Assembly: GCA_000998135.1 (NCBI GenBank)
Contig: LCCV01000002.1
Location: forward strand, 29,421-93,420
Origin: Parcubacteria group bacterium GW2011_GWA2_42_14
GTDB taxonomy: Bacteria > Patescibacteriota > Minisyncoccia > Sungbacterales > GWA2-42-14
Direction of reading: 5' to 3'
Length of the DNA: 64,000 nucleotides
In this document: piece by piece, positions 14,842-52,076 of the stretch
How the letters are laid out: every line of letters starts with the position of its first letter
Position numbering within the stretch: the first letter of the stretch is position 1
Translations under genes and position numbers: made by a program
The notes under the pieces: generated by a model
What the model was told of the DNA's origin: nothing
The model's input: only the letters and a program-made list of their open reading frames with translations
Database searches by the model: none

Positions 14842-16266
14842 TTAATTTTGCGTTATAATCTTGCGTATAATTTTGCTTCTACTTAACCCAACCACTGCCG
14901 CGAGCATAATCAAGGGCTCAATCGGATATCTTACGCGCCCTTCAATTCCGAATCCGGCTCCAAAAGCCATCACGGTATAATAAACAAAAATAAGGCCGGC
15001 AAGTACCGCAAATGACTTTTGAGAATAATCGCCCGATTTATACAAGGTCCAAATTCCTAAAACGGCGGACATCGCCAAAATAAGGCGCAAAATCTTTCCG
15101 CCCAAAGAAACGAGATAATACGGAGCAGCTATAAACTTAAGCGTTCCATAAAAAGCTTCGCCGATTTTTCCCTGAAACAAAAGCTGGGTTGGCGGAATAA
15201 TATAGACAGGTTTTTCCAACACCGTAAAAAAATAGGTAAGGAAATATGAGTAATTATGAGATGACCAAAAACTTATGGTAGTAAGAATGGCAAGCTTCAT
15301 GGTACTTCCCAAATTTTGCACGGCAAATTCAACGCCCTTTTTTTGCATCACCTCGGCCAAGTTCAAATTGCTTGCCACAACAATGATATCAGTACCGGTT
15401 TCCTCTTTCCATGAATCAATTCTTATTTTCTTTCCCTCTTCGTAGCTTATGCCATCCCGCAATGAAAGGATTGAGGCGCCGTCATAAACATAAAGATTAT
15501 ATGCCTCATGAGAACTCATCTGCCAAAGACCGAAGTGATAATAATTTCTTAAAAACCAGGGGAAAATCATAGCTATAAAAACAGAAAGAAAAATGACGGC
15601 AGCCGTAAAAACCTTCTTTGTATCTGCCCTAATCAACCGCAAATAAAATATAATCGCGGCCAGATACAAAAATACCAAATAATTGGAAACTTTCACATAC
15701 GCCGCCAGCCCCAATGAAATACTTGATAACAAAATATTTGCCGTAAGACCGCTTTTCATTATTCTTGCAAAAAATAAAACGCCGGCCATAAACAAAAACC
15801 CATAAAGCGCTTCGGTCATATAAACAATGCTAAAAATTACCAAATGCGGTTCAAGAGCGCTAAGCAGCGCGCCAGCTAAATTTATTTTGGGGGAAAATTC
15901 CAAAATACGACCGATTCTTAAAATAATTACTGAAACCAGCGACGACAAAAAAATCTGCGCTATTAAAGCAGGCCAAAAACTACCGAACAAAAACATGGAT
16001 ACTGCAAGAAAAAACGGATAACCGGGAACAAAAAGCACATGCGGAGTTAATCCGCCATCACGGCTAAAACCCATTCCCGAAACAATGGAACGCGCCATAT
16101 CAATAAAACCGCCGGAATCGCTCAAATACAAAATTCCTTCGCCATGATTATAAAGGGCAAGAAATAAAGCTATCAGCCTTACTGAAAGCGCAATTCCAAA
16201 AATAATAATTTCTATTTTGTATTTCTGAAAAAAATCCTGTGAAAATGATGCCATAAGAAAAATCAT
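14842..16266 (-). CDS. Polytopic membrane glycosyltransferase, ArnT/PMT-like (GT39/GT83).
   Basis: More than 10 predicted TM helices and an N-terminal loop FVPGYPFFLAVSMFLFG. Adjacent to a GT2 lipid-sugar synthase gene. Confidence 0.6.
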   Translation of the reverse strand: MIFLMASFSQDFFQKYKIEIIIFGIALSVRLIALFLALYNHGEGILYLSDSGGFIDMARSIVSGMGFSRDGGLTPHVLFVPGYPFFLAVSMFLFGSFWPALIAQIFLSSLVSVIILRIGRILEFSPKINLAGALLSALEPHLVIFSIVYMTEALYGFLFMAGVLFFARIMKSGLTANILLSSISLGLAAYVKVSNYLVFLYLAAIIFYLRLIRADTKKVFTAAVIFLSVFIAMIFPWFLRNYYHFGLWQMSSHEAYNLYVYDGASILSLRDGISYEEGKKIRIDSWKEETGTDIIVVASNLNLAEVMQKKGVEFAVQNLGSTMKLAILTTISFWSSHNYSYFLTYFFTVLEKPVYIIPPTQLLFQGKIGEAFYGTLKFIAAPYYLVSLGGKILRLILAMSAVLGIWTLYKSGDYSQKSFAVLAGLIFVYYTVMAFGAGFGIEGRVRYPIEPLIMLAAVVGLSRSKIIRKIITQN

Positions 16267-40217: not shown

Positions 40218-41687
40218 ATGAAAATGATGCTAACTTTACGGCAAAAACAAATACTGGATTTTGTTGCCACCTACGCGCATAAACGGAAAATTGCCCCCTC
40301 GCTTGAAGAAATCAAAAGGCATTTTCGGCTAAAATCGGTTTCAAATATCCATCAGCACCTCAATGCTTTAGCGGCCAAGGGCTATTTAAACAGGTTCAAA
40401 AACCGGAAACGCGGCATTGAGCTCCCCCAATCCGAACGTCTCGTAAAAATACCGCTCTTGGGAGAAATTGCCGCAGGCAAACCGATAGAAGCAATAGAAC
40501 ATAAAGAGTTTATCGCGGTCCCCGAGTCAAAATTGGCTTCAGGCGGGGAAATTTACGCCCTTCGCGTAAAAGGAGACAGCATGATTGACGAACATATAAA
40601 TAACGGGGACACAATTTTAATAAAAAGGCAGAATGTCGCCGAAAACGGCCAAAAAGTGGTAGCGCTCCTTAACGGAAATGAAGCAACGCTTAAAACTTTT
40701 TACAAAGAAAGGGGGCAGATAAGATTGGAGCCGGCCAATAAAAATTATCAACCCCTCATAATAAAAAGGGGGCAGGAGTTTTCTTTGCAGGGCGTTTTAC
40801 TTGATGTAATAAAAACAAATGAGGATGAATGGCAAACAAAACCTTTTACATTGCCAGCCGAAGAAGGAAAAGGGCGACAAACTATTACTTTTCAAAAAAT
40901 CCCTCCTTATTTTGAAGAACGAAATTTTATTTTATATCATGGAGATTGTGTCGGCGTTCTTGCACAACTGCCGCCAGAATCGGTTGATATGATTTTTGCC
41001 GATCCTCCATACAATCTTTCCAATGATGGATTTTCGCTTCACGCCGGCAAAAGAGTTAGTGTAAATAAAGGAAACTGGGATAAGAGCAAGGGGTTTAAAG
41101 ATGACTACGATTTTCATTATCGCTGGCTCAATGCCTGCAAAAATATTCTAAAGCCCAACGGCACTCTTTGGGTAAGCGGAACATACCACTCAATTTATCA
41201 ATGCGGCTACGCGCTGCAATCTCTTGGTTATCACATATTAAATGATATTTCATGGTTCAAACCAAACGGCTCGCCGAATTTGAGCTGCCGTTATTTTACG
41301 GCCTCACACGAAACTTTGCTCTGGGCGCGAAAAGACAAAAAAGCGAAACATTTTTTCAACTATAATTTAATGAAAAAAGGGAATTGGCCGGAAGATTTTA
41401 TTAAAAAACCAAACCTGCAAATGCGTTCGGTTTGGGCGATTTATCCGCCTAAAAAGCCGGAAAAAACTTTTGGCAAACACCCAACGCAGAAGCCGCTAGA
41501 ATTATTAAAGAGAATTATCCTTGCATCAACAAACCCCGGCGCCGTCATTCTTGACCCGTTCACCGGAAGTTCCACAACGGGAATTGCCTCGGAAATAATA
41601 GGAAAAAGAAAGTTTATCGGAATTGATACTGATAAAAAATATCTCGAACTATCCGTAAAACGCTTTAAAGAGATTATGACGACATAA
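40218..41687 (+). CDS. Fusion protein: complete LexA-type repressor (wHTH plus S24 autopeptidase) fused to a beta-class (DPPY...FxGxG) N6-adenine/N4-cytosine DNA methyltransferase.
   Basis: N-terminal 200 aa: LTLRQKQILDFV... wHTH, cleavage-site region LLGEIAAGKPIEA, catalytic Ser in VKGDSMIDE and Lys in GNEATLKTFYK. C-terminal 270 aa: motif IV MIFADPPYN (41001-41012), then ...WVSGTY..., and C-terminal motif I ILDPFTGSSTTGIA. This is a single uninterrupted 489-codon ORF. Confidence 0.8.
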   Translation: MKMMLTLRQKQILDFVATYAHKRKIAPSLEEIKRHFRLKSVSNIHQHLNALAAKGYLNRFKNRKRGIELPQSERLVKIPLLGEIAAGKPIEAIEHKEFIAVPESKLASGGEIYALRVKGDSMIDEHINNGDTILIKRQNVAENGQKVVALLNGNEATLKTFYKERGQIRLEPANKNYQPLIIKRGQEFSLQGVLLDVIKTNEDEWQTKPFTLPAEEGKGRQTITFQKIPPYFEERNFILYHGDCVGVLAQLPPESVDMIFADPPYNLSNDGFSLHAGKRVSVNKGNWDKSKGFKDDYDFHYRWLNACKNILKPNGTLWVSGTYHSIYQCGYALQSLGYHILNDISWFKPNGSPNLSCRYFTASHETLLWARKDKKAKHFFNYNLMKKGNWPEDFIKKPNLQMRSVWAIYPPKKPEKTFGKHPTQKPLELLKRIILASTNPGAVILDPFTGSSTTGIASEIIGKRKFIGIDTDKKYLELSVKRFKEIMTT

Positions 41688-41703: not shown

Positions 41704-42279
41704 CTATCTTCTAAGGGGTAGGGCCGACTCTAACACTTCTGTATAGTGTTTTTTGCCGTCAATGTAGTCCCTTAATGTAAAGAGGAGATTTCGGAACATA
41801 TATGCACCCGGAGTCGCTTTTTCGTTTTTGGAAAAAAGTTCAATGACCGTAGCCACATAATCAAGCGAAAGGGTATAATTCTGCTCAATATGGGCATAAC
41901 GTTTGGTAATTTCTTCCACCGTTTCAAGTTTTAAATCATCTCGCTTCTTAACGGTAGTGAAAGGCGTGACACGGTCATAATAATCGATGTAATATTGTAT
42001 GATTTCTCGAACTTCTTTTCTATATTCCGGAATCTTAAGAAGTAAATCAACCACCCAATATGTATGCGGCGGGAGTACGGGTTTTTTATCGAGACCGGGC
42101 ACTAACACCTTAAGCTTAAAATCCAGTTTCGGATTCGCCCCGCGGCTACCTTGAAAAAGGGCGACAAGCGTCCCATCTTTTATTTTATATGTCTTGAACG
42201 CGCGCTCTTTGGGCGATAATTGCCAAAGATGCGTGCCGTCATAATATTTAAGATTATAAACAAGAGGAGTTTGCGGCAT
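41704..42279 (-). CDS. Hypothetical protein (191 aa), convergent with the LexA-MTase gene.
   Basis: ORF with good coding appearance. No recognised motif. It has a weak D...E-x-K-like segment (VVDLLLKIPEYRK). Confidence 0.35.
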   Translation of the reverse strand: MPQTPLVYNLKYYDGTHLWQLSPKERAFKTYKIKDGTLVALFQGSRGANPKLDFKLKVLVPGLDKKPVLPPHTYWVVDLLLKIPEYRKEVREIIQYYIDYYDRVTPFTTVKKRDDLKLETVEEITKRYAHIEQNYTLSLDYVATVIELFSKNEKATPGAYMFRNLLFTLRDYIDGKKHYTEVLESALPLRR

Positions 42280-42357
42280 AACCTCTCTAGTGTAATCTTT
42301 TCAAACGAAATGATCAACCGCCTCTCCGCTCCCTTGCTCGTTGCTCGCCCCGAATAT

Positions 42358-43176
42358 TTAGAAGACCGGCGATAAAGTAGGGAAAGTTTCAAAAAGACTT
42401 TTAATTTTGGGTAGCGGTGATCGGTTGAATGGCGGATAAGCAAAAGCGAAAAAAAATTTTGCAAGAGAACGGCGGTTTAATAAAACCGCAACCAAATTAG
42501 CAAAAGTAAGCAGGGTATTTATTCTTCCGTAATCACCCTCTGCATTCTCATGGCCCATGGTATGCATTTTTACATCTTCATTTAACGCCAAAACGTCTAA
42601 AAAATACAAATACACATCTATAGGAATGCCCTCAATTTCTGGCAATCTTTTTTTGAGAACAGCTAAGGAAATTTTCGGAGGCACATATCTCCATTTATTC
42701 TCCTTATTTTTCATATGGTCTAACATAAAAGCCATTCGATAAATCAACATTCCAAAAATTTCTAAGCCGAAGATGTCGGCGCGCATAAGATGCCCTATTT
42801 GCTCAAACATATCTCCAAACGTTAAATCCTTACCAATCTTAACTCCTGCTTGCATGATAAAAGGATTCATATCATTTTTATTATTTGTGATTTTACCTGT
42901 TTTATAATGCTTACGTTTAAAATCGGGGGCCGCTTCTTTTCCCGGCTTGCCAACAGCAACAACAAAATCATGGCTCTTATAAATCTCCGTTGTTATTCTA
43001 TGCGCCTGGTCTTTGCCCCTCGGCCATCCTATTGCCTCTTGCAGCATTTCTATTCGAAGGGGCCTGGCAGTTGAGCTTAATTTATTAAGAGTAATTAAAC
43101 AAAGTTCTTTATTAATTGCCAAAATGGTTTCTTCCGGTATGCCGAGAGCTAAATAATATTCTTCGGTTATTTTCAT
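42358..43176 (-). CDS. Hypothetical protein (272 aa).
   Basis: ORF only. No recognised domain. It has a possible Rx6H segment (RMAFMLDH) but nothing diagnostic. Confidence 0.35.
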   Translation of the reverse strand: MKITEEYYLALGIPEETILAINKELCLITLNKLSSTARPLRIEMLQEAIGWPRGKDQAHRITTEIYKSHDFVVAVGKPGKEAAPDFKRKHYKTGKITNNKNDMNPFIMQAGVKIGKDLTFGDMFEQIGHLMRADIFGLEIFGMLIYRMAFMLDHMKNKENKWRYVPPKISLAVLKKRLPEIEGIPIDVYLYFLDVLALNEDVKMHTMGHENAEGDYGRINTLLTFANLVAVLLNRRSLAKFFFAFAYPPFNRSPLPKIKSLFETFPTLSPVF

Positions 43177-43180
43177 ATTT

Positions 43181-44041
43181 TTATTTTTTTAGCGCGTCAA
43201 TCTCTGCTGCGACTGCCTTATTATGGGGGTCTAAAGCAAGGACTTTTTGGTAATACTCAAGGGCTTTGGGGAAATTGCCCTGTTCTTTATAAAAACGGGC
43301 GAGGTAGCTTAAAAGGGTTTGGTTGTCGGGGTTGGCGGCGAGACCGGATTCAATTATTTTTATAATTTTGTTGCTTCTCGACTCGCCTGCGGGTTCGCTC
43401 GAAGAATATAAATCGGCAAGGGCTGTATATGGATAAATATCGCCCGGAGCATTCTCTATGGCCTTCTTATAGCTTAATTCGGCCTTAGGATAGTCCTTAA
43501 GATATAAAGCGTATAATCCACCCAGATTAGCAAAAGAGGTGGAATTTTGGGGCCTGATGAGTGAGGCATACTCCCAGGCGTCCCGCGCTCCCAAATAATC
43601 GCCGAAAAATTTCTTAATTACCCCGGCTCTTAACCAATTATCAAGATTATCCGGGCTTTCGGAAACGAATTTGGCAATGTCCAAAAGTTCATTTCTTAGC
43701 TTGGTTTTGACATCTTCAGGATAAGCTAAAACGACGCTTTTATCTTCGTTTACGGTTCCGATTGGGGCGCCATTGTATTGAGGAAGCGTAGGTAATTCTG
43801 TTGGTTTTACAACTTCACCGGACAAGTCACGACCTTCTTTGCGGACAAGGTCGGGACTTGATTGACCGACAAGACCCGGTCTTTTTTCCTCAAGGTCGGG
43901 CCTTAAAACGTCACCGAAAAAATAATAGCCGGAGGCGATAAAGGCCAAAAATAATAAAATAACGAGGTCGCGGAGGAGTAGATTTTTTGTTGAATTGGAC
44001 ATGTTTTTATTAATAGGTATGACTTCGACGAAATCAGGCAA
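43181..44041 (-). CDS. TPR-repeat protein with N-terminal TM anchor.
   Basis: N-terminal hydrophobic helix. C-terminal TPR-like repeats (WEYASLIRPQNSTSFANLGGLYALYLKDYPKAELSYKKAIE...ALEYYQKVLALDPHNKAV). Confidence 0.6.
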   Translation of the reverse strand: MPDFVEVIPINKNMSNSTKNLLLRDLVILLFLAFIASGYYFFGDVLRPDLEEKRPGLVGQSSPDLVRKEGRDLSGEVVKPTELPTLPQYNGAPIGTVNEDKSVVLAYPEDVKTKLRNELLDIAKFVSESPDNLDNWLRAGVIKKFFGDYLGARDAWEYASLIRPQNSTSFANLGGLYALYLKDYPKAELSYKKAIENAPGDIYPYTALADLYSSSEPAGESRSNKIIKIIESGLAANPDNQTLLSYLARFYKEQGNFPKALEYYQKVLALDPHNKAVAAEIDALKK

Positions 44042-44460: not shown

Positions 44461-47400
44461 TTAGTAGGAAACAACTTCAGCTGCCATGTTCGTCGCGGGC
44501 AGACCTACCACGCCAAATCCATTGGTCCAGTCCTTGCTGGAAAGCGCAGCGGTAGTCGTAGCGTTTGGAGACCAGATTAAGTCATTATGGGTTTGATCAG
44601 CTATACCCGCAGTTGAAGGAGTAGTTGATGCCTGACCCATAATCGGGTTGGTAGCAGACGGTGTTCCGGGTATCAATCCAGGATATGCTCCATCACCTTC
44701 AAGTTGTGTTGATACGGATGAGTTGGTGGAAACCGAGGAAACGGTTGCCACAACATCAAAGTATCTGGTTGCGCCCGCGGGAACTTGAATAACATCTGTA
44801 GGTACTCCTAGAACACTTCCTGACTGAGTTACCGGGTCAAAGTAGACGCTAAACTGGTTACCACCGCCATACAAAACGTTATCCTCAGTTCCAGCGCTAA
44901 ACCATTCTTTCTTATTTTGAACCGGAATCGCGGTATTGTTCAACAAACCGGAATTGGCATAAGCCGCGATTGAGAAGAGAATATCGCTATAACCATACAC
45001 ACGCAAATTCTGCACAGTTGCCGAAGTCGTTGACATCACAAAGGTGAATTTAGCCAATCCTATATCGCCGTGGGAATCCGCGGTTACCTTGAACCTCAAC
45101 AAACTGACAGTACCTGCGGCGAGTTTATTCGTCGACAAGGAAACTTTAGCAAATGTCGGGTAGGACTTGAACATCCTTACGCCGTTGGAAGCTGTGCTTG
45201 AAACCGCGGCAGTATCAGCGGTCTTTGTCTGAATGGTAGAACCGGATGATTGCCCAACGCCTTCCGTTCCCCTGCTGCCTCCGTCAAAATCAACTACAAC
45301 CAAAGCTCCTTCAGTTCCAACCTGCGAAGTGCCGATTGCGCTCAAATCGCCTTTTACGGTCAGAGTCTTATCCCCATCTTTGGGAATCACGAAATCGGCC
45401 GTAAGGGTTGAAGTTGAATAATCGGTACCGGTAAACAAACCTTCTCCGACCTTGGTTGAACCGTCCCACAAAGTATATTTCACAATATCCGCGGGAGCGT
45501 TATTGGTCGTGGAAGAAAGTTTCAATGCAAGTTTTTGAAGCGTAATGGCTTCGTTGGTCGCGTGTAAGTTGAGTAACGCCAACGGAACATCCGTAGTGTT
45601 TCCGGCAACTATCGCGTAAGTCGGACTTGAAGCGCTAAGCGATACGGACAATGAGCCACCTGCAACCAAAGTCATTTCATTCTGATCGTCGGTGGAAGCG
45701 AGATGAGTTACGGTTGCCGCTTGCCCTGATGTAACACCAGTCGCGGAAAGAGTACTTGCCGCAATCTGCCATTCTGCCTGATTACTAGCAGTCAAGTTTG
45801 CAGGAATATTGCACTTGATGGCCAAGGTCTTGGTTGTTCCTTTGGGAATAATCAAGTGGCTATCAAGCGTAAAGGTTTTTGCTCCTTCAGTAGCTATATC
45901 AACAACATTGGTGCCGGTATTCAGGGCGGTTGCTCCGTCCCAAACTTGGCAACCAGTCAAATCTGTCGTATCTGCTCCGGTATCATCCGCAAACGTAAAG
46001 CTAAGGGTGGTAAAACGAATATCCTCGCCGGAAGCCGTTGCGTCAAACACCGGCTTGGCAAAGGTAAATCCTTGTATACCCATAACTACGTTTTGCGCGG
46101 GCGGGTCGGAAGACAAAGTAACAGTAACAACCGCGCTTTTTACAGTCATAGTATTTCCGGTAACTTGTCCAGCTGGAGTCGGGGTAACCGCTGTTCCGGT
46201 AACGGCACCGGTTCCGTTCCTCCAATCCGTTCCCGGAGTGGTGGAAGCGATAATAGTGTCATTATTTTCAAAACCGGAAGTCGCGGCTAATTTGCCCTTT
46301 AAGGTATAAAGGCCTTTTCCAATGGGGAAAGTAATGGAATCGGTAAAGGTTACATATCCATGAGCAACTAAGCTGTTTACGGTATTTCCCGCTTGTCCGT
46401 CAACAGGACCGGCAACAACCGCTCCTGACGGGCCAACCAATACTATATTGTCAATGTCGTCAACATCAATTTCCGCTCCTCCGTCAGAATCAGAAAGAGT
46501 AAAGCGGAAAGAAGTTTCTGGAATCGTTACCGCCTCTCCCTTTACTTCCACATCAAATCCACCCAAGGGCTGGTCAGCAAGAGTTACAGCAACATTTTGC
46601 GATGCTACCGCTGTTGATTTGGATACAACTATGGAGCCAGCGCCGATATTAATGGCATTGGCATTATAAGCCGGGCTAGCTGAATCAAATCCAGCTGTGC
46701 CAGTATCGGCAGGCAATAAGCCATATCCATACTGGGCTCCGACTACATAAAGGTCGTCATGGCGGTAAATGTCAAAATCAACTGTTCTCGCGGAACCGGA
46801 AACAATATCGCCTTTTACGTAAATTTCAGCGGTATTGCCTTTCAAAACTTTGACTCCAGTTCCAAAAACAGAGGTGTAATATTTTCCATCAGAACTTACG
46901 GTCGTGTCATAAGCAGTTCCGGCAACATAAACCTTGACATTAGCAAGGTCGGCCGTGGCCGCGGAACCGGATTGGTTGAATTTGACTGATTTAATCCAGA
47001 TGTCCTCCCCTGCTCCTGCTGTTCCTTTAATAGAAGAGAACACATAACCGGTTGTTCCAACTTCTTTGGTAATACCGGTTGTTGAAGGATCAAGCGGACC
47101 CCTGATAAGGTCAAATCCACCTACAAGGCCTGATGTTTCGTTCATGGTCTGACCGGTGCCTGCAACCGGAAGTCCGGTAACTGTGGCTGAACCAGCGCTC
47201 ACCGCCACAACTGTCAAGCGGATAACCTGTCCGGAATAACCGGTGGTTGCTCCGCGATTAGCGGCAATAGTCATGGTTTTAGAAGTTCCTGCTTTTACGG
47301 TGAAGGGCTCGGTCAAGACCGCCTGATGAAGGGAATTCAAGGTCTTGGAAAGACCTAATTGAAGTCCGTCTTCACCAAGAATAACGATTCCGGAAAGAGC

Positions 47401-48078
47401 CGCATCCTGTCCAATGCCCTGACGTTCAACTGTTACGGAGCTGACAGTTACATCACCGTCAGAACCGGCAGTAAACACTACACTGGTAAATGGAACGCGA
47501 GTTACACTCAACGGAACCAAGGCCGCGGCAGGCTGTGCACCTGCTGATACGCTAAGACCTGTTCCTGATGGAACTGTTGGCGTTGTTGGTGTTTCTGTGG
47601 TTGGCGTTGTTGGTGTTTCTGTGGTTGGCGTTGTTGGAGTTGTTGGAGTTGTTGGAGTTACCGGAGCCACTGCCATTGAATTATACTTTGCCTGGGAAAT
47701 TGGACCAAAGTATCCGACGGCCGGAGAAACCCCGTTTGCCGCCTGCCAAGCAGCTACTGCCGCTTGAGTGACAGAACCGAAATATCCGGTGGCACCCCCC
47801 GCATAAGTGAAGTGACCTGTTGAAGTTAAATAATTCTGCAAGCATGTTACAGCATCCCCTCTTGAACCGACTGTAAGAGCGCTAGTGAAACCGCAAGCGG
47901 CTCCGCCGCCACCTCCTCCGCCGGAAAGGGCGACGAGTTGTGCTTGAAGGGCCGTGATTTGAGCTTGCAACTGGGCAATGAGATCTGCCGTTGACTGTTG
48001 CGCCAATGACGCGACAGGGGTCAGAACCAAAGCTCCGGTAAGCCAAACCGCGGCTGAGGTTGAAATAAATTTATTCAT
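44461..48078 (-). CDS. Giant (1205 aa) secreted cell-surface protein with an N-terminal peptidoglycan-binding-like domain, a PTT-repeat linker and long Thr/Gly/Val-rich beta-repeats.
   Basis: Signal peptide MNKFISTSAAVWLTGALVLTPVASLAQ. A Gly run. PG_binding_1-like GSRGDAVTCLQNYLTSTGHF...GYFGSVTQAAVAAWQAANGV. (PTTPTTETPTT)n linker. The remainder is Ig-like beta-rich. Confidence 0.65.
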   Translation of the reverse strand: MNKFISTSAAVWLTGALVLTPVASLAQQSTADLIAQLQAQITALQAQLVALSGGGGGGGAACGFTSALTVGSRGDAVTCLQNYLTSTGHFTYAGGATGYFGSVTQAAVAAWQAANGVSPAVGYFGPISQAKYNSMAVAPVTPTTPTTPTTPTTETPTTPTTETPTTPTVPSGTGLSVSAGAQPAAALVPLSVTRVPFTSVVFTAGSDGDVTVSSVTVERQGIGQDAALSGIVILGEDGLQLGLSKTLNSLHQAVLTEPFTVKAGTSKTMTIAANRGATTGYSGQVIRLTVVAVSAGSATVTGLPVAGTGQTMNETSGLVGGFDLIRGPLDPSTTGITKEVGTTGYVFSSIKGTAGAGEDIWIKSVKFNQSGSAATADLANVKVYVAGTAYDTTVSSDGKYYTSVFGTGVKVLKGNTAEIYVKGDIVSGSARTVDFDIYRHDDLYVVGAQYGYGLLPADTGTAGFDSASPAYNANAINIGAGSIVVSKSTAVASQNVAVTLADQPLGGFDVEVKGEAVTIPETSFRFTLSDSDGGAEIDVDDIDNIVLVGPSGAVVAGPVDGQAGNTVNSLVAHGYVTFTDSITFPIGKGLYTLKGKLAATSGFENNDTIIASTTPGTDWRNGTGAVTGTAVTPTPAGQVTGNTMTVKSAVVTVTLSSDPPAQNVVMGIQGFTFAKPVFDATASGEDIRFTTLSFTFADDTGADTTDLTGCQVWDGATALNTGTNVVDIATEGAKTFTLDSHLIIPKGTTKTLAIKCNIPANLTASNQAEWQIAASTLSATGVTSGQAATVTHLASTDDQNEMTLVAGGSLSVSLSASSPTYAIVAGNTTDVPLALLNLHATNEAITLQKLALKLSSTTNNAPADIVKYTLWDGSTKVGEGLFTGTDYSTSTLTADFVIPKDGDKTLTVKGDLSAIGTSQVGTEGALVVVDFDGGSRGTEGVGQSSGSTIQTKTADTAAVSSTASNGVRMFKSYPTFAKVSLSTNKLAAGTVSLLRFKVTADSHGDIGLAKFTFVMSTTSATVQNLRVYGYSDILFSIAAYANSGLLNNTAIPVQNKKEWFSAGTEDNVLYGGGNQFSVYFDPVTQSGSVLGVPTDVIQVPAGATRYFDVVATVSSVSTNSSVSTQLEGDGAYPGLIPGTPSATNPIMGQASTTPSTAGIADQTHNDLIWSPNATTTAALSSKDWTNGFGVVGLPATNMAAEVVSY

Positions 48079-48079
48079 A

Positions 48080-49453
48080 ATTTTTTATCTAAGTTAATTA
48101 TAACTTTTCCAAAAATTTTTTCCGTGGTTCGATAAACTCACCACGAGAAGAAAAAGATGGAAAAGAAATTTACAATCACGATTCATAACCTCTTCGACTT
48201 TACCCGATATTCCAAAGGAAAATTTAGGGTAAAAAAGATTTAAATCGTGAATAACAAAATCAAATTAATAATAATCAATGTTTTGGAGTCAAGTCACCCT
48301 CATGCGTCTTGAATCATGAATCTTGAAACTTGAAACATGAATTACGAAACATGAGATGGTCCGCTCCATCTTGTCATATTTAAATATTTTAATATTTAAA
48401 TATTCAAAGCGGGAGGGTCGACCGGACTTTAAAACTCCTAAATCAAAAACAAATTAAGAATTTACTAATTTTTTCTTTTGCATCCGAACCTAAACCAAAA
48501 CCATCATCAAACAGAAAAGTAATTTTTAATTATCAAGGTTCTTGCCGTTCAGAATCATGAAACATGAAACATGAAATTTCAATCGTTTACAACCAAATTT
48601 CGAAATTAAAGCAACCAAGTTATACTATCAATTCCGAAATTTAATTGCAAATTATATTGTGAATAATGGTGGTTCGATAAACTTACCATAAATTCGGTTT
48701 GCTCACCGCAAGTGTTAAATAACTACAAACAAGCCAAAAATTGGCTCATTTAATTTAAAAAAATTAAGTCATAACTATCTTAAATTATTATATATCTCCG
48801 CAAATGGTTCAACTCTGCTTACCACAAGTATATTATAAACCCACTAAAAATCACTTGCAAATAGGCATTGTGGATAAGTGCTACAGCTTCAAAACCAAAA
48901 TATAGTACTTATATTGCTTAATTTTCAAGCATTTTTGCCATTTCGGCAATAACAGCAATTTAACGGCAAAAAACCAACTTATCTGATATCTGATATTATT
49001 ATTATAAATCATATAAAAAAGCAAATAAACTCTGTTGTGGATAAGTTAATTCTATACAAAAATGGCATAAAAAACCCCATTTGCAACTATCCTTTTTACC
49101 TTTCACGGCATTCAAAGCTCATAGGAGCAGATTTCACGCGAATATTAACACTGATTAACGCGGAAATAAATAACCGGGAATGGCCAAAATCTATCTTAAA
49201 GCCTTAAAAAATAGCTTATTTTATTAAAATTAACCTAATTATTCTGATAAATTCACCTAATTCCTAATTACCTAATTCACCTAATAAAATTTCTAATGCA
49301 CTAATACTTAATTCTTAATTTAAAATTTTGGAATTTGGTTATTTTATTAGAAATTAGGTGAATTAGACAATTAGAAATTCTTTAAGCAAACTCAAAAATC
49401 AGCAAAATTTATCCTTCGACAAGCTCAGGCAATAACCATTTTTGATATGGGTT
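48080..49453. other. 1.37-kb gene-free AT-rich region with short tandem repeats, two perfect DnaA-box nonamers and two covarying hairpins.
   Basis: No ORF of 60 aa or more on either strand. tgtggataa occurs at 48869-48877 and 49036-49044. ggttcgataaact loops sit at about 48125-48150 and 48668-48695 with different stems. catgaaa heptad repeats are present. Confidence 0.5.
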
Positions 49454-50323
49454 CTAAACAATGCTCTCCAAATGTTCTCTAAAACCTTTTTTCACTTCCG
49501 GATGACGAAGACCGAAATCCACGACAGCCTTAAGGAGGCCGAGTTTATCTCCGCAATCATATCTGATTCCTTTGAATTCATAACCGTATAAATTTTCACC
49601 TTTGGCAAGCATTCTTTCAAAAGCATCAGTTAAAAATAATTCCTTACCGGGTTCATATTTTACTTTGGCAAGTTCGTCAAATACCGCGGGCGTCAAAATA
49701 TATTTTCCAACGATTGACAGATTAGACGGAGCCTCCTCTATTGTAGGTTTCTCAATTATTTTCTCTACTTCGTATGTCCTTGATGAAATTTTTTTGCCGC
49801 CAATAACACCGTATTTGTAAACCATTTCTTTGGGAACCCGTTCTAAAGCAAATACCGGCTTATTAAATTTTTCAAAAACGACAGCAAGCTGTTTAAGACA
49901 TGGTATCTTTGAATATACGACATCATCTCCATAAAGGACAGCGACAGGTTCATCGCCAATTAAATGACGGGCCTGCAACAAAGCGTCACCAACCCCAAGC
50001 GGTTCTTTCTGACGGACAAAAGCAAAACGAGCAAGTGATGAAATTTTTCTTATTTCTTTAGCCAAACCATGTTTACCTTTCTTTGTCAGAAAAAATTCCA
50101 GCTCTCCGGCATGGTCAAAATGATCCTCAATAGCGCGCTTGCCCCTGCCGGTAACAAATATGATTTCCTTTATTCCGGAATCAACAGCTTCCTCAACCAA
50201 ATACTGAATAACCGGCTTATCCACAATAGGAAGCATTTCTTTTGGCTGGGCTTTGGTGGCAGGAAGAAAGCGGGTGCCGAAACCAGCTACAGGGATGATG
50301 ACTTTTTTGATTTTAGAAACCAT
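49454..50323 (-). CDS. galU: UTP--glucose-1-phosphate uridylyltransferase.
   Basis: KKVIIPVAGFGTRFLPATKAQPKEMLPIVDKPVIQYLVEEA is the canonical GalU N-terminus. Confidence 0.85.
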   Translation of the reverse strand: MVSKIKKVIIPVAGFGTRFLPATKAQPKEMLPIVDKPVIQYLVEEAVDSGIKEIIFVTGRGKRAIEDHFDHAGELEFFLTKKGKHGLAKEIRKISSLARFAFVRQKEPLGVGDALLQARHLIGDEPVAVLYGDDVVYSKIPCLKQLAVVFEKFNKPVFALERVPKEMVYKYGVIGGKKISSRTYEVEKIIEKPTIEEAPSNLSIVGKYILTPAVFDELAKVKYEPGKELFLTDAFERMLAKGENLYGYEFKGIRYDCGDKLGLLKAVVDFGLRHPEVKKGFREHLESIV

Positions 50324-50520
50324 TTAAATCTAATAAATCCAAATCTCAAAATCCCAAATAAATTCAAACTTCAAAATTCAAGTATAAAAACTTAATTCTT
50401 TAACAATTTGGATTTTGGTATTATTTGGGATTTGATGCTTTGGATTTTGAATTTTTAAACCCGGTTTGTCGCTTATAAACGACACCTGAAATGTCGCTTA
50501 TAATAATGTCGTTTATAAAT

Positions 50521-51375
50521 CTATGCCTTAATTTTATATATTGCCCATCTCTTATCACCCCGTCTTTCAATCGTATTATTACCCATAAGAGCGGCCAGGT
50601 CGCGCTGTAAAGTTTTAATGCTGAATTTGTTGGAAAAAATCTGGGACAAATCAACTGATTTTACCGCTTGATTTTGACGTATGTAATCAAGAATAGTTTG
50701 CCGTCTTTCATTAAAACCGTTTGTTTCTTTATTGACAATACTTTTATGGTTATTTTGCTCAATTCCGTTACCATACCCATTGGAAAGACTATTGCCATTA
50801 CCATTACCGTTTCCATTTCCATTTTCCAAAGATACCTTTTGGCTGTTCACTCCGTTAGAAGTCCACTTTGCAAAAGTATGCATACTATTTGAATGCCCTG
50901 TATAATTACCGTTTCCAACAACATGATTATTATTTTTACTTCTAACGGGGTAAATTATGCTTCTTTCCACTTTGGGCTTGCGGATATTTTTGATGGAAGT
51001 GGAAGCGGTCTGGATTTGAGGAATTGACTTATTCTTTTCCTCTTCTTCTGCTATTTTTTCCGTAAAACACGCCAACTCTCTCTCAAAAAAATTAGCAAAA
51101 AATTCATATTCTCTGTCCAAAACTGCCGTATTAACGGCTTTTACCAGATTACTGAAACGCGCGACTCCAAAATAAGTGCGGATTGCCTGAATTTTTGCAA
51201 GCAGAAACCTGGCATTATTTTCCCCTATTTTTCTGTCATATTCGCAAACCGAAGACAATATTTCATTCGCTTTTTCGCGTATTTGGCGTTTAAGCACTTC
51301 ATCCTTAGGGAATATATCTGTAACACGATATACTGCGAGAGTCAATTCAAATATTTTTTTGTTTAATTCTCCCAT
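50521..51375 (-). CDS. Hypothetical regulator: N-terminal four-helix-bundle (Avd/23S-IVS-protein-like) domain, low-complexity NG repeats, and a C-terminal DeoR-type HTH.
   Basis: IFELTLAVYRVTDIFPKDEVLKRQIREKANEIL resembles four-helix-bundle family proteins. (NG)n run. C-terminal VDLSQIFSNKFSIKTLQRDLAALMGNNTIER is HTH-like. Confidence 0.4.
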   Translation of the reverse strand: MGELNKKIFELTLAVYRVTDIFPKDEVLKRQIREKANEILSSVCEYDRKIGENNARFLLAKIQAIRTYFGVARFSNLVKAVNTAVLDREYEFFANFFERELACFTEKIAEEEEKNKSIPQIQTASTSIKNIRKPKVERSIIYPVRSKNNNHVVGNGNYTGHSNSMHTFAKWTSNGVNSQKVSLENGNGNGNGNGNSLSNGYGNGIEQNNHKSIVNKETNGFNERRQTILDYIRQNQAVKSVDLSQIFSNKFSIKTLQRDLAALMGNNTIERRGDKRWAIYKIKA

Positions 51376-51552
51376 TTAAAGGCGACTCCAATATACGAAT
51401 TTCACTCTAATGACTCTAATAAATTCGGGGCATTCGAGTGTTTGATTTGAATCATTCGAGTCGCATTATAACAACCTTATTGAATGTACAAAATCCAACA
51501 ACCGCTTGTCAACAAAAAACTATTAACAGTAGTAAATATCAAAAGCTGACAT

Positions 51553-51578
51553 AAAAAAACGCGCGGTAAACCGCGCGA
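51553..51578 (-). terminator. Rho-independent terminator after the small secreted-protein gene.
   Basis: cgcgcgg-taaa-ccgcgcg stem-loop, followed in the gene sense by ttttttt. Confidence 0.55.
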
Positions 51579-51597
51579 TTATTATTACATTGAAGAT

Positions 51598-51867
51598 TTA
51601 ATTATCGCCCAAAACAACACCAGCTTTACATAATTCATAATCCGAACGGGCGTCTCTGGCTTTTTGGGAAAACCAAAATAAGTTAGGAAAAGTAATTGAG
51701 TATCTCTTTTCAGCTTCATACGCATATAGAGCAGCGTTTTTATAAAATCTTTCATCAAAAATATATTTTTCACAATCCTGCGAGCCAGCATTATTTACGT
51801 TTTCGTGAGCAAAAACTGGCGTAATCAAGAAAAAACCTAAAATCAATACTGCTGAAAAAATCTTCAT
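51598..51867 (-). CDS. Small secreted hypothetical protein (89 aa).
   Basis: Signal peptide MKIFSAVLILGFFLITPVFAHE. Cys-containing mature part. Confidence 0.4.
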   Translation of the reverse strand: MKIFSAVLILGFFLITPVFAHENVNNAGSQDCEKYIFDERFYKNAALYAYEAEKRYSITFPNLFWFSQKARDARSDYELCKAGVVLGDN

Positions 51868-52076
51868 ACTTTCTTATCCTTTTAGGTTTTCAAAAAACCG
51901 TATTTTATCGGTTGCACATCTTAGAATCTATGTCAAGACCTCAAAAACCCCCATCGGTTTACAATGGGAATTTTTTTCTTTCTTTTACTTATTTTTAATT
52001 AAAAGAGATACTTCATGTAGTTTACCTTGAGATTCTTCACAAAGTTAAGAATGACAATCAAAAGGATCAAAATGAC

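What the first reader, a model, noticed from the sequence alone, without database searches (positions are those of the whole stretch)
41704..44041. Three uncharacterised genes convergent with the LexA-MTase: possible restriction or defence partner
The MTase has no recognisable REase next to it. The two hypotheticals (191 and 272 aa) immediately downstream and convergent have no domain I can assign from sequence. One has a D...EYRK segment, the other an Rx6H segment. They end in an operon-like arrangement with a TPR protein (42358..43176 and 43181..44041 are 4 nt apart). If either is a nuclease, this is an SOS-linked R-M system. If not, the MTase is an orphan.
Basis: inference. Interest (0 to 1): 0.5.

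Follow-up and report, generated by a model that had tools for sequence, protein, structure and literature searches.

The report
Two novel GATC restriction-enzyme candidates
Two of the three unknown genes facing the LexA-methylase gene are most likely restriction enzymes of unrecognised protein families that cut unmethylated GATC, so the methylase is not an orphan; the third gene (TPR) is an unrelated neighbour.

Summary
The three ORFs exist exactly as described. No profile library or PDB search recognises the 191-aa and 272-aa proteins, although both AlphaFold models are confident.

Comparative genomics places both in GATC-specific restriction-modification (R-M) modules:
- The window's methyltransferase (MTase) domain is 49-68% identical to the N6_N4 MTases of bona fide DpnII cassettes.
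- GATC is the most depleted of all 256 tetranucleotides in the window (34 observed, 160 expected).
- The 272-aa family sits beside a DNA MTase in 22 of 24 non-redundant loci. The partners belong to at least four MTase families, across Patescibacteria, archaea, Bacillota and Prevotellaceae. It co-evolves with its usual partner, often behind a small HTH (controller-like) gene.
- The 191-aa family tracks this window's MTase type. Its distant relatives sit in GATC modules in Streptococcus, Peregrinibacteria and other bacteria. In some it is the only nuclease candidate, and once it is fused to a Dam-class MTase.
- Copies of either gene without a nearby MTase are truncated or altered.

Best reading: a composite, LexA-linked GATC type II system with one MTase and two unrelated endonuclease candidates. 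The TPR gene is not part of it. Nuclease activity is inferred, not shown. For the 191-aa protein a non-nuclease accessory role remains a real rival.

The parts
40218..41687 (+). LexA-S24-MTase fusion (489 aa). It is the modification enzyme of the module, a beta-class N6_N4 adenine MTase of the DpnA type, inferred to be GATC-specific. It is fused to a complete self-cleaving LexA.
   Evidence: Pfam finds LexA_DNA_bind, Peptidase_S24 and N6_N4_Mtase. PADLOC scores it as MTase_II at 8e-96. The MTase domain is 68%, 53%, 49% and 48% identical to the N6_N4 MTases of the GATC cassettes L127, L123, L119 and L122. The LexA part aligns over its full length to E. coli LexA, with the Ala-Gly cleavage site and the Ser and Lys of the catalytic dyad aligned.
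40218..40832 (+). LexA moiety of the fusion: winged-helix DNA-binding domain plus S24 autopeptidase.
   Evidence: (TIGR00498 lexA, 176 bits against a cut-off of 111).
40902..41687 (+). MTase domain of the fusion (called MTase B in the report).
41704..42279 (-). 191-aa protein. It is a candidate GATC restriction endonuclease of an unrecognised family, or alternatively a conserved accessory of GATC modules. It is the native partner of this window's MTase type. The superfamily-conserved residues are G44, D53, H72, W75, D78, K82, L148, E153 and K154.
42358..43176 (-). 272-aa protein. It is a candidate GATC restriction endonuclease of a second, unrelated and unrecognised family. It is present here without its usual MTase partner. 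Conserved core motifs: GK.GKE (76-81), NN..DM.P (98-105), E139, R147, DH (153-154), NED.K (199-203), GR.N (217-220).
43181..44041 (-). TPR protein (286 aa) with a hydrophobic N-terminal stretch. Judged not to be part of the module; it is only a local upstream neighbour and possibly co-transcribed.
   Evidence: TPR families. Found next to the 272-aa gene only in the near-identical relatives L011/L038 and in none of the other roughly 40 loci with a 272-aa homologue.

Best explanation
The locus is a composite GATC-specific type II restriction-modification module carried by a Patescibacteria (Parcubacteria-group) genome.

The LexA-fused MTase methylates the adenine of GATC and protects the chromosome. 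This step is inferred from homology and site avoidance.

The two convergent genes encode two unrelated endonucleases that cut unmethylated GATC in incoming DNA. This step is inferred from context only.

The 191-aa protein is the native partner of this DpnA-type MTase. The 272-aa protein is the endonuclease of a sister system that uses a different LexA-fused MTase. It survives here because the resident GATC methylation also protects against it. The composite probably arose by cassette recombination at this locus.

The LexA moiety is intact and should be RecA-cleavable. It is proposed to tie MTase expression to the SOS response: DNA breaks, including self-restriction, would cleave LexA, derepress the fusion gene and raise methylation. 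That regulatory loop is speculation.

The TPR gene is a bystander.
For: MTase specificity:
- The MTase domain is 68%, 53% and 49% identical to the N6_N4 MTases inside cassettes that also carry a D12 Dam-class MTase plus a DpnII-family or MutH-family nuclease.
- GATC is the lowest of all 256 tetranucleotides in the window: 34 observed against 160 expected, O/E 0.21. The depletion is uniform along the window, and GANTC is not depleted.
- The window contains no other R-M gene.

272-aa protein:
- It lies convergent and directly adjacent to a DNA MTase in 22 of 24 non-redundant genome loci. The two exceptions are 99-aa and 152-aa fragments.
- Its partners span at least four MTase families: MTase A fused to LexA, MTase A without LexA in DPANN archaea, a third family with an SPPF motif in other archaea, and a C5 MTase (plus a Vsr-like gene in L032) in Bacillota and Prevotellaceae.
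- An HTH_3 gene, placed like an R-M controller protein, sits directly upstream in L004, L005, L014, L016, L019, L044, L045 and L111.
- It co-evolves with MTase A (Mantel r = 0.80, p = 0.001) and is less conserved than that MTase (0.77 against 0.85).
- GATC is the most depleted palindrome in all three taxonomic groups of loci: 0.41, 0.54 and 0.45.
- The conserved core is rich in acidic and basic residues.

191-aa protein:
- Loci with an intact copy carry an MTase 70-87% identical to the window's, or another GATC-type MTase set.
- In at least 10 loci the pair is flanked by housekeeping genes such as Ddl, RarA and GreA.
- Remote relatives (18-42% identity) in Streptococcus, Peregrinibacteria and other bacteria all lie in GATC modules.
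- In L125/126 (D12 MTase, 191-like, N6_N4 MTase) and in L122 it is the only nuclease candidate, and GATC O/E there is 0.20-0.23.
- P0267 is a single-chain Dam-class MTase fused to a 191-like domain.
- The superfamily-conserved residues are D53, H72, D78, K82, E153 and K154, which look like a metal-site or catalytic set.
- Copies without an MTase are truncated (L108), or have lost the otherwise invariant C-terminus exactly where a methyl-dependent DpnI homologue replaced the MTase (L089, L092).

LexA:
- The cleavage site and the Ser/Lys dyad are conserved.
- A stand-alone LexA heads the L125 cassette.
Against: - The 191-aa protein often co-resides with a recognisable GATC nuclease (DpnII, MutH-like) or another nuclease candidate (the 173-aa F3 family, the 272-aa protein), sometimes with only one MTase.
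- The 191-aa protein is more conserved than its MTase (0.78 against 0.73) and shows no significant co-evolution with it (r = 0.22, p = 0.12). Both features are atypical for a cognate endonuclease.
- Loci with the 191-aa gene plus F3 show no GATC depletion (O/E 0.96).
- GATC depletion could come from other GATC systems elsewhere in these genomes.
- The specificity of MTase A is not established by homology.
- No LexA operator was found near the locus, so the SOS loop is untested.
Confidence: 0.62

Rival explanations
1. Only the 272-aa protein is an endonuclease. The 191-aa protein is a non-nuclease accessory of GATC methylation or restriction modules. It could be an activator or DNA-binding partner of small nucleases such as the MutH-like and F3 proteins. 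It could be a partner of DpnA-type MTases acting on single-stranded or hemimethylated GATC DNA. It could also be a regulator.
For: - It accompanies four or five different nuclease families and several MTase families.
- It is more conserved than its MTase and does not co-evolve with it.
- It has no nuclease fold.
- In Streptococcus it sits in an operon 15 nt behind a short MutH-like gene. MutH is known to need an activator; that point rests on my own knowledge.
- Loci with the 191-aa gene plus F3 lack GATC depletion.
- Decay in the DpnI-linked loci also fits a protein that is merely useless without GATC methylation.
Against: - In L125/126 two GATC-type MTases flank it with no other nuclease. 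The same holds for L122 and for at least 10 Patescibacteria loci flanked by housekeeping genes. GATC is strongly depleted in these loci, at O/E 0.20-0.50.
- The conserved residues are Asp, His, Asp, Lys, Glu and Lys rather than a basic binding surface.
- An HTH_3 gene precedes it directly in L056, and via the 103-aa F7 gene in L070-73, which is the slot usually held by the endonuclease.
Confidence: 0.25
2. Neither protein is a nuclease. The LexA-MTase is an orphan epigenetic or SOS regulator, and the two genes are unrelated passengers of a variable genomic island, for example other defence or toxin genes that merely cluster with MTases.
For: - No catalytic fold or family hit for either protein.
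- The loci lie in variable regions that also hold Fic, HARE-HTH and SRA-HNH genes and recombinases.
Against: - Adjacency to an MTase is near-universal, it persists across domains of life, and it holds across four MTase families for the 272-aa protein.
- The 272-aa protein and MTase A co-evolve tightly.
- Copies lacking an MTase are degraded.
- One 191-like domain is fused to a Dam-class MTase.
- GATC depletion tracks the genes.
Confidence: 0.08
3. The genes are conserved Patescibacteria housekeeping proteins. Their 65-75% identity across candidate phyla would reflect core cellular function.
For: Sequence conservation across Harrison-, Falkow-, Woese-, Lipton- and Niyogibacteria is very high.
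Against: - The taxonomic distribution is patchy and crosses domains: DPANN archaea, Methanosarcinales, Bacillota, Prevotellaceae and Streptococcus.
- The flanking genes vary from locus to locus.
- Only 27 loci were found among 185,579 species genomes for the 272-aa family.
- Truncated copies exist.
- The genes always travel with MTases.
Confidence: 0.02

Closest known systems
DpnII-type GATC restriction-modification cassettes (DpnM D12 MTase, DpnA N6_N4 MTase, DpnB/DpnII endonuclease) and the alternating DpnI cassette of Streptococcus pneumoniae
   Same: The inferred target is GATC. The window's MTase is 49-68% identical to the N6_N4 MTases of such cassettes. Relatives of the 191-aa gene sit inside or beside DpnII cassettes. 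At the same Patescibacteria locus the MTase can be replaced by a DpnI homologue, which echoes the pneumococcal cassette swap.
   Different: The window has no D12 MTase and no DpnII-family (PF04556) endonuclease. The endonuclease slot is held by proteins of unrecognised families. The MTase is fused to LexA.
Orthodox type IIP R-M systems with convergent R and M genes and a controller (C) protein, such as PvuII, BamHI and Esp1396I
   Same: The R and M genes are separate, adjacent and convergent. In many related loci a small HTH_3 gene lies directly upstream of the candidate endonuclease. The target is a palindromic 4-bp site that is depleted in the host genome.
   Different: No C gene is present in this window. 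There are two unrelated endonuclease candidates for a single MTase. Neither candidate has a known nuclease fold. Regulation is presumably through the LexA domain fused to the MTase.
MTases with N-terminal HTH autoregulatory domains (such as M.SsoII and M.EcoRII; from my own knowledge) and canonical LexA
   Same: A DNA-binding repressor domain is fused to the N-terminus of an R-M MTase. The LexA part has all the hallmarks of a self-cleaving SOS repressor.
   Different: A complete LexA, including the S24 autopeptidase, is fused, which would make repression DNA-damage-sensitive. I found no description of such fusions in the searchable literature.
R.PabI 'half-pipe' restriction DNA glycosylases

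Membership tests
Type II restriction-modification system | A DNA MTase gene lies adjacent to the candidate endonuclease gene. | tested here: met
   The N6_N4_Mtase domain lies 16 nt from the 191-aa gene. Adjacency holds in 22 of 24 loci for the 272-aa family and 39 of 42 for the 191-aa family (with L089 corrected by hand).
Type II restriction-modification system | The endonuclease gene cannot persist without a protecting MTase. | tested here: met
   The copies without a nearby MTase are fragments (L036, L037, L108) or have lost the invariant C-terminus (L089 and L092, next to DpnI). This is comparative evidence, not an experiment.
Type II restriction-modification system | The recognition site is depleted in the host genome. 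| tested here: met
   GATC O/E is 0.21 and is the lowest of 256 tetranucleotides. It is 0.41-0.54 in loci with the 272-aa gene, and 0.20-0.50 in loci where the 191-like gene is the sole candidate. It is not met in loci with the 191-aa gene plus F3 (0.96).
Type II restriction-modification system | The partner protein cleaves unmethylated target DNA. | not testable with these tools
   This needs enzymology or toxicity assays in dam-minus against dam-plus E. coli.
Known restriction-endonuclease folds (PD-(D/E)XK, HNH, GIY-YIG, PLD, half-pipe) | Sequence or structural similarity to one of these catalytic folds. | tested here: not met
DpnII-type GATC cassette | A DpnA-type N6_N4 MTase. | tested here: met
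   49-68% identity to the N6_N4 MTases of cassettes that contain D12 MTases plus DpnII or MutH-like nucleases.
DpnII-type GATC cassette | A D12-class Dam MTase and a DpnII-family (PF04556) endonuclease. | tested here: not met
   tblastn with Dam, DpnII, MutH-like, F3 and DpnI queries finds nothing in the 64-kb window.
C-protein-controlled R-M system | A small HTH controller gene lies upstream of the endonuclease gene. | tested here: not met
   It is absent from the window. It is present upstream of the 272-aa homologue in L004, L005, L014, L016, L019, L044, L045 and L111, and upstream of the 191-aa homologue in L056 and L070-73.
LexA / SOS regulon | LexA with an Ala-Gly cleavage site and a Ser-Lys dyad. 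| tested here: met
   32% identity to E. coli LexA over the full length, with AAG, G-x-S-M and the Lys aligned. TIGR00498 scores above its cut-off.
LexA / SOS regulon | A LexA operator in front of the regulated genes. | tested here: inconclusive
   No GAAC-N4-GTTC box lies in the promoter regions. Matches across the window are no more frequent than chance (15 found against 19.7 expected). No palindrome is enriched upstream of 37 LexA-MTase genes. The true Patescibacteria motif was not available to me.
TPR gene as a member of the module | Conserved synteny with the R-M genes. | tested here: not met
   The TPR homologue is found only in L011/L038, where the 272-aa homologue is 97% identical to the window's, and in none of the other loci.

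The most novel reading that the evidence does not exclude
Both proteins would be founding members of two new restriction-nuclease folds, additional to PD-(D/E)XK, HNH, GIY-YIG, PLD and half-pipe. The 191-like family would be the dedicated nuclease partner of DpnA-type MTases, possibly acting on single-stranded or hemimethylated GATC DNA. That would explain why it rides along with ordinary double-strand GATC enzymes. The complete LexA fused to, or encoded in an operon with, the MTase would form an SOS feedback loop: it would sense self-restriction damage and raise methylation. This would be a damage-responsive R-M system in ultra-small symbiotic bacteria that largely lack CRISPR.
Probability: 0.2. 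Interest if true: 0.85.

Novelty: new variant of a known kind. Interest (0 to 1): 0.62.

Why it matters
- **New enzyme families.** If confirmed, these are two widely distributed GATC-specific restriction enzymes with no recognisable nuclease fold. They occur in Patescibacteria, DPANN archaea, oral Streptococcus and gut or rumen Bacteroidota. That would add new catalytic architectures to a field dominated by five folds, and new reagents.
- **Better defence annotation.** It would re-annotate hundreds of apparently orphan MTases in candidate-phyla genomes as complete defence systems. Defence tools such as PADLOC currently miss them.
- **A testable SOS link.** LexA is repeatedly linked to these modules: by fusion to two MTase families, by fusion to a C5 MTase, and by operon linkage in L125. 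This gives a concrete, testable connection between the SOS response and control of restriction-modification.
- **An unusual arrangement.** The locus shows that several unrelated endonucleases can accumulate under one methylation specificity.

Tried and rejected
- **Profile libraries.** Pfam, PADLOC, NCBIfam and PHROGs gave nothing for either protein. Scanning all 46 superfamily members gave nothing either.
- **PDB by sequence.** The single-sequence hit to 28li_A (E = 0.008) vanished with the family profile. The Tako8 hits are repeat artefacts.
- **Relatedness of the two families.** Rejected: hhalign probability 0.1%.
- **GANTC (CcrM/HinfI) specificity.** This was suggested by the best NCBIfam and PDB hits. 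I rejected it in favour of GATC because GANTC is not depleted (O/E 0.85-1.19) and GATC is, and because of the cassette homology.
- **LexA operator.** The Gram-positive-type box and a de novo palindrome count both found nothing.
- **Plasmids and viral contigs.** No relatives of either family.
- **Literature.** Four searches found nothing on these families or on LexA-MTase fusions. The one relevant paper (Sanchez-Osuna et al. 2017, Environ Microbiol, on the Patescibacteria SOS network) is not held.
- **3D clustering of conserved residues.** Could not be checked because model coordinates are not exposed.
- **Promoter and terminator scan.** No better than shuffled sequence.
Full report
**1. The observation**

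The three minus-strand ORFs are present exactly as reported:
- 41704..42279, 191 aa.
- 42358..43176, 272 aa.
- 43181..44041, 286 aa with a TTG start, 4 nt from the previous gene.

They converge on the plus-strand gene 40218..41687. That gene encodes a LexA DNA-binding domain, an S24 peptidase and an N6_N4 DNA methyltransferase (MTase) in one 489-aa chain.

The 286-aa protein is a TPR protein with a hydrophobic N-terminal stretch.

The 191-aa and 272-aa proteins have no significant match in Pfam, PADLOC, NCBIfam or PHROGs, nor in PDB sequences. I rejected a weak single-sequence hit to 28li_A because it disappears with a family profile. I rejected the hits to the designed repeat protein Tako8 as repeat artefacts.

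**2. Both genes are real, conserved and mobile**

Each protein has more than 200 homologue clusters, mostly at 60-75% identity over the full length. They come from many Patescibacteria lineages. The nearest genome record is a Parcubacteria-group MAG, L011, whose 272-aa homologue is 97% identical.

The distribution is patchy and crosses domains of life:
- The 272-aa family also occurs in DPANN archaea, Methanosarcinales, a Bacillota MAG and Prevotellaceae.
- It has a gut/rumen branch of 61 clusters, none of them named.
- The 191-aa family has 139 clusters of remote relatives at 50% clustering. These include oral Streptococcus and Peregrinibacteria.

This rules out a housekeeping role.

**3. Structures**

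AlphaFold models built from 48-sequence alignments are confident:
- 272 aa: pLDDT 84, pTM 0.87.
- 191 aa: pLDDT 89.6, pTM 0.85.

The viral structure library gave nothing, and AFDB was unavailable. The two families are unrelated to each other (hhalign probability 0.1%).

**4. Synteny reveals two different R-M partnerships**

I fetched 27 genome loci for the 272-aa family and 80 metagenome loci for the 191-aa family, plus 10 loci found by exact look-up. I then mapped the window's proteins onto all of them and clustered every ORF.

Loci with only the 272-aa gene carry a convergent LexA-MTase fusion. Its LexA part is 52-66% identical to the window's, but its MTase domain is only 26-29% identical. 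I call this MTase A.

Most loci with the 191-aa gene carry an MTase 70-87% identical to the window's, with or without the LexA fusion. I call this MTase B. The rest carry a DpnII-type cassette, and two carry a DpnI homologue instead (section 6).

So the native partner of this window's MTase is the 191-aa gene. The window belongs to a recurrent composite class, 272 > 191 > < MTaseB-LexA. Other members are L009/10/42, L011/38, L041, L044/45 and L102. In L046/47 the 272-aa gene is truncated.

The TPR gene is syntenic only in L011/L038, so it is not part of the module.

**5. The 272-aa protein behaves like a restriction endonuclease**

- In 22 of 24 non-redundant loci it lies directly next to a DNA MTase. 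The two exceptions are fragments of 99 and 152 aa.
- The partner MTase changes family with taxon. It is MTase A fused to LexA in Patescibacteria. It is MTase A without LexA in DPANN archaea. It is a different MTase with DPFxGxGTT and SPPF motifs in other archaea. It is a C5-cytosine MTase in Bacillota and Prevotellaceae, with a Vsr-like gene as well in L032.
- An HTH_3 gene, placed like an R-M controller protein, often lies immediately upstream.
- It co-evolves with MTase A (Mantel r = 0.80, p = 0.001) and is less conserved than that MTase, as is usual for endonuclease/MTase pairs.
- Its family-wide invariant residues are mostly charged or polar: GK.GKE, NN..DM.P, E139, R147, DH, NED.K and GR.N.

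**6. The 191-aa protein is a cross-phylum companion of GATC modules**

In Patescibacteria it sits next to MTase B in several arrangements:
- Alone with MTase B, flanked by housekeeping genes such as Ddl, RarA and GreA.
- With a 173-aa protein that carries a PD...E-x-K motif (family F3).
- With a MutH-family protein.
- With a D12 Dam-class MTase.
- Upstream of a complete DpnII cassette.
- In two loci, next to a DpnI homologue that has replaced the MTase.

Remote relatives (18-42% identity) occupy similar places elsewhere:
- Streptococcus: D12 and N6_N4 MTases lie divergent from a MutH-like > 191-like operon.
- A 2.75-Mb genome: a 191-like gene lies convergent with an N6_N4 MTase, between housekeeping genes.
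- Two cassettes contain D12, DpnII, 191-like and N6_N4 genes in different orders.
- L125/126: an operon of LexA > 60 aa > D12 MTase > 191-like > N6_N4 MTase, with no other nuclease candidate.
- P0267: a single chain fusing a Dam-class MTase to a 191-like domain.

Superfamily-wide conservation reduces to G44, D53, H72, W75, D78, K82, L148, E153 and K154. That looks like a catalytic or metal-binding set.

Among about 80 copies the C-terminus HYTEVL..A.PG is invariant, apart from a few conservative substitutions. The exceptions are the two DpnI-linked loci, where it is replaced after HYT. Other truncated copies also exist (L108, L109, L111).

After correcting L089 by hand, 39 of 42 non-redundant loci with enough flank have an MTase nearby. 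The exceptions are L089, L092 and L108.

**7. The target is GATC**

- The window's MTase domain is 68%, 53%, 49% and 48% identical to the N6_N4 MTases of L127, L123, L119 and L122. Its best PDB and NCBIfam hits are to CcrM, a GANTC enzyme.
- GATC is the most depleted of all 256 tetranucleotides in the window: 34 observed against 160 expected, O/E 0.21, z about -12. The depletion is uniform along the window. GANTC is not depleted.
- The window holds no other R-M gene.
- GATC is also the most depleted palindrome in loci carrying the 272-aa gene, in bacteria (0.41), in archaea (0.54) and in Bacillota/Prevotellaceae (0.45). The same holds for loci with only the 191-aa gene and MTase B (0.50).
- In remote loci where the 191-like gene is the sole nuclease candidate, GATC O/E is 0.20-0.23.
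- It is not depleted in loci with the 191-aa gene plus F3 (0.96). It is only mildly depleted in the DpnII (0.81) and MutH-like (0.74) classes. Depletion is therefore supportive but not a strict marker.

**8. LexA**

The N-terminal 205 residues align with E. coli LexA over their whole length at 32% identity. The Ala-Gly cleavage site, the Ser and the Lys are all conserved.

LexA is linked to these modules in several ways:
- Fused to MTase A.
- Fused to MTase B.
- Fused to a C5 MTase in L004.
- As a stand-alone gene in L089 and L125.

I found no operator, so the proposed SOS feedback on methylation is a hypothesis.

**9. Interpretation**

The best-supported reading is a composite GATC type II R-M module. 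It has one DpnA-type MTase fused to LexA and two unrelated endonuclease candidates of unrecognised fold. The 272-aa gene is retained because resident GATC methylation protects against it too.

What is shown:
- The gene structures.
- The family distributions and the synteny statistics.
- The co-evolution of the 272-aa protein with MTase A.
- The GATC depletion.
- The MTase homology to GATC-cassette MTases.
- The integrity of LexA.
- The absence of a known fold for either protein.

What is inferred:
- Nuclease activity of either protein.
- GATC specificity of each protein.
- The recombination history of the composite locus.
- The SOS loop.

The main rival concerns only the 191-aa protein. It frequently co-resides with other nucleases, it is more conserved than its MTase, and it does not co-evolve with MTase B (r = 0.22). 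These features fit an accessory role. The loci where it is the sole nuclease candidate and the acidic conserved core argue for a nuclease.

My estimates are about 0.75 that the 272-aa protein is an endonuclease, about 0.6 for the 191-aa protein, and about 0.85 that at least one of them is, in which case the MTase is not an orphan.

**10. Novelty**

The system type, type II R-M acting on GATC, is well known. The two candidate endonuclease families, the complete LexA fused to the MTase and the one-MTase, two-endonuclease composite are not described in any library or paper I could search. I could not query REBASE. I therefore class it as a new variant of a known kind.

Noticed in passing
L004 15905-16828 (and neighbouring gene 15451-15921): A second LexA-S24 fusion in the same genome, this time to a C5 DNA_methylase (PF00145). 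It lies convergent with a PDDEXK_5 gene. LexA-MTase fusions therefore exist for at least three MTase families.
   Followed up: no
L089 1072-2590; L092: At the same locus the MTase domain is replaced by a stand-alone LexA (241 aa) followed by a full DpnI + DpnI_C homologue (274 bits), which is methyl-dependent. This resembles the DpnI/DpnII cassette alternation of pneumococci, here in Patescibacteria. The adjacent 191-aa homologue has lost its invariant C-terminus.
   Followed up: partly
L125 16-681: A stand-alone LexA heads an apparent operon: LexA > 60 aa > D12 MTase > 191-like > N6_N4 MTase. The organism was not identified. LexA linkage to GATC modules thus recurs without fusion.
   Followed up: partly
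L079 3162-3683 and 24 other loci (family F3): A 173-aa protein with a PD...E-x-K motif (weak PDDEXK_11 hit, E = 7e-4) recurs on either side of the 191-aa gene in 25 loci. These loci show no GATC depletion (O/E 0.96), which is unexplained.
   Followed up: partly
L070 1235-1546 (family F7); L069 2714-3751 (family f29): F7 is a 103-aa family of unknown function lying between an HTH_3 gene and the 191-aa gene in 7 loci. f29 is a protein that, from the sequence and my own knowledge, looks like two HARE-HTH repeats plus a nuclease-like C-terminus. It lies directly upstream of the 191-aa gene in 4 loci.
   Followed up: no
P0267 / L118 817-2205: A single 462-aa polypeptide with a D12 Dam-class MTase (residues 12-256) fused to a 191-like domain (residues 294-442). 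An HTH gene lies upstream.
   Followed up: partly
window 44461-48078 and 48001-52000: A 1205-aa Thr/Ala/Gly-rich protein that looks surface-exposed has GC 0.46-0.52, against about 0.40 for the background. It is followed by a low-GC stretch of 0.31-0.36. This may be an island boundary or a compositionally odd gene.
   Followed up: no
window, whole: Besides GATC, the palindromes CTAG (O/E 0.42) and TCGA (O/E 0.49) are also clearly depleted. This hints at further restriction pressures in this lineage, although no matching genes lie in the window.
   Followed up: no
L119 2451-3314: In Streptococcus an SRA_ScoMcrA + HNH gene, of the type IV methyl-dependent kind, lies beside the GATC module that contains the 333-aa 191-like protein.
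   Followed up: no
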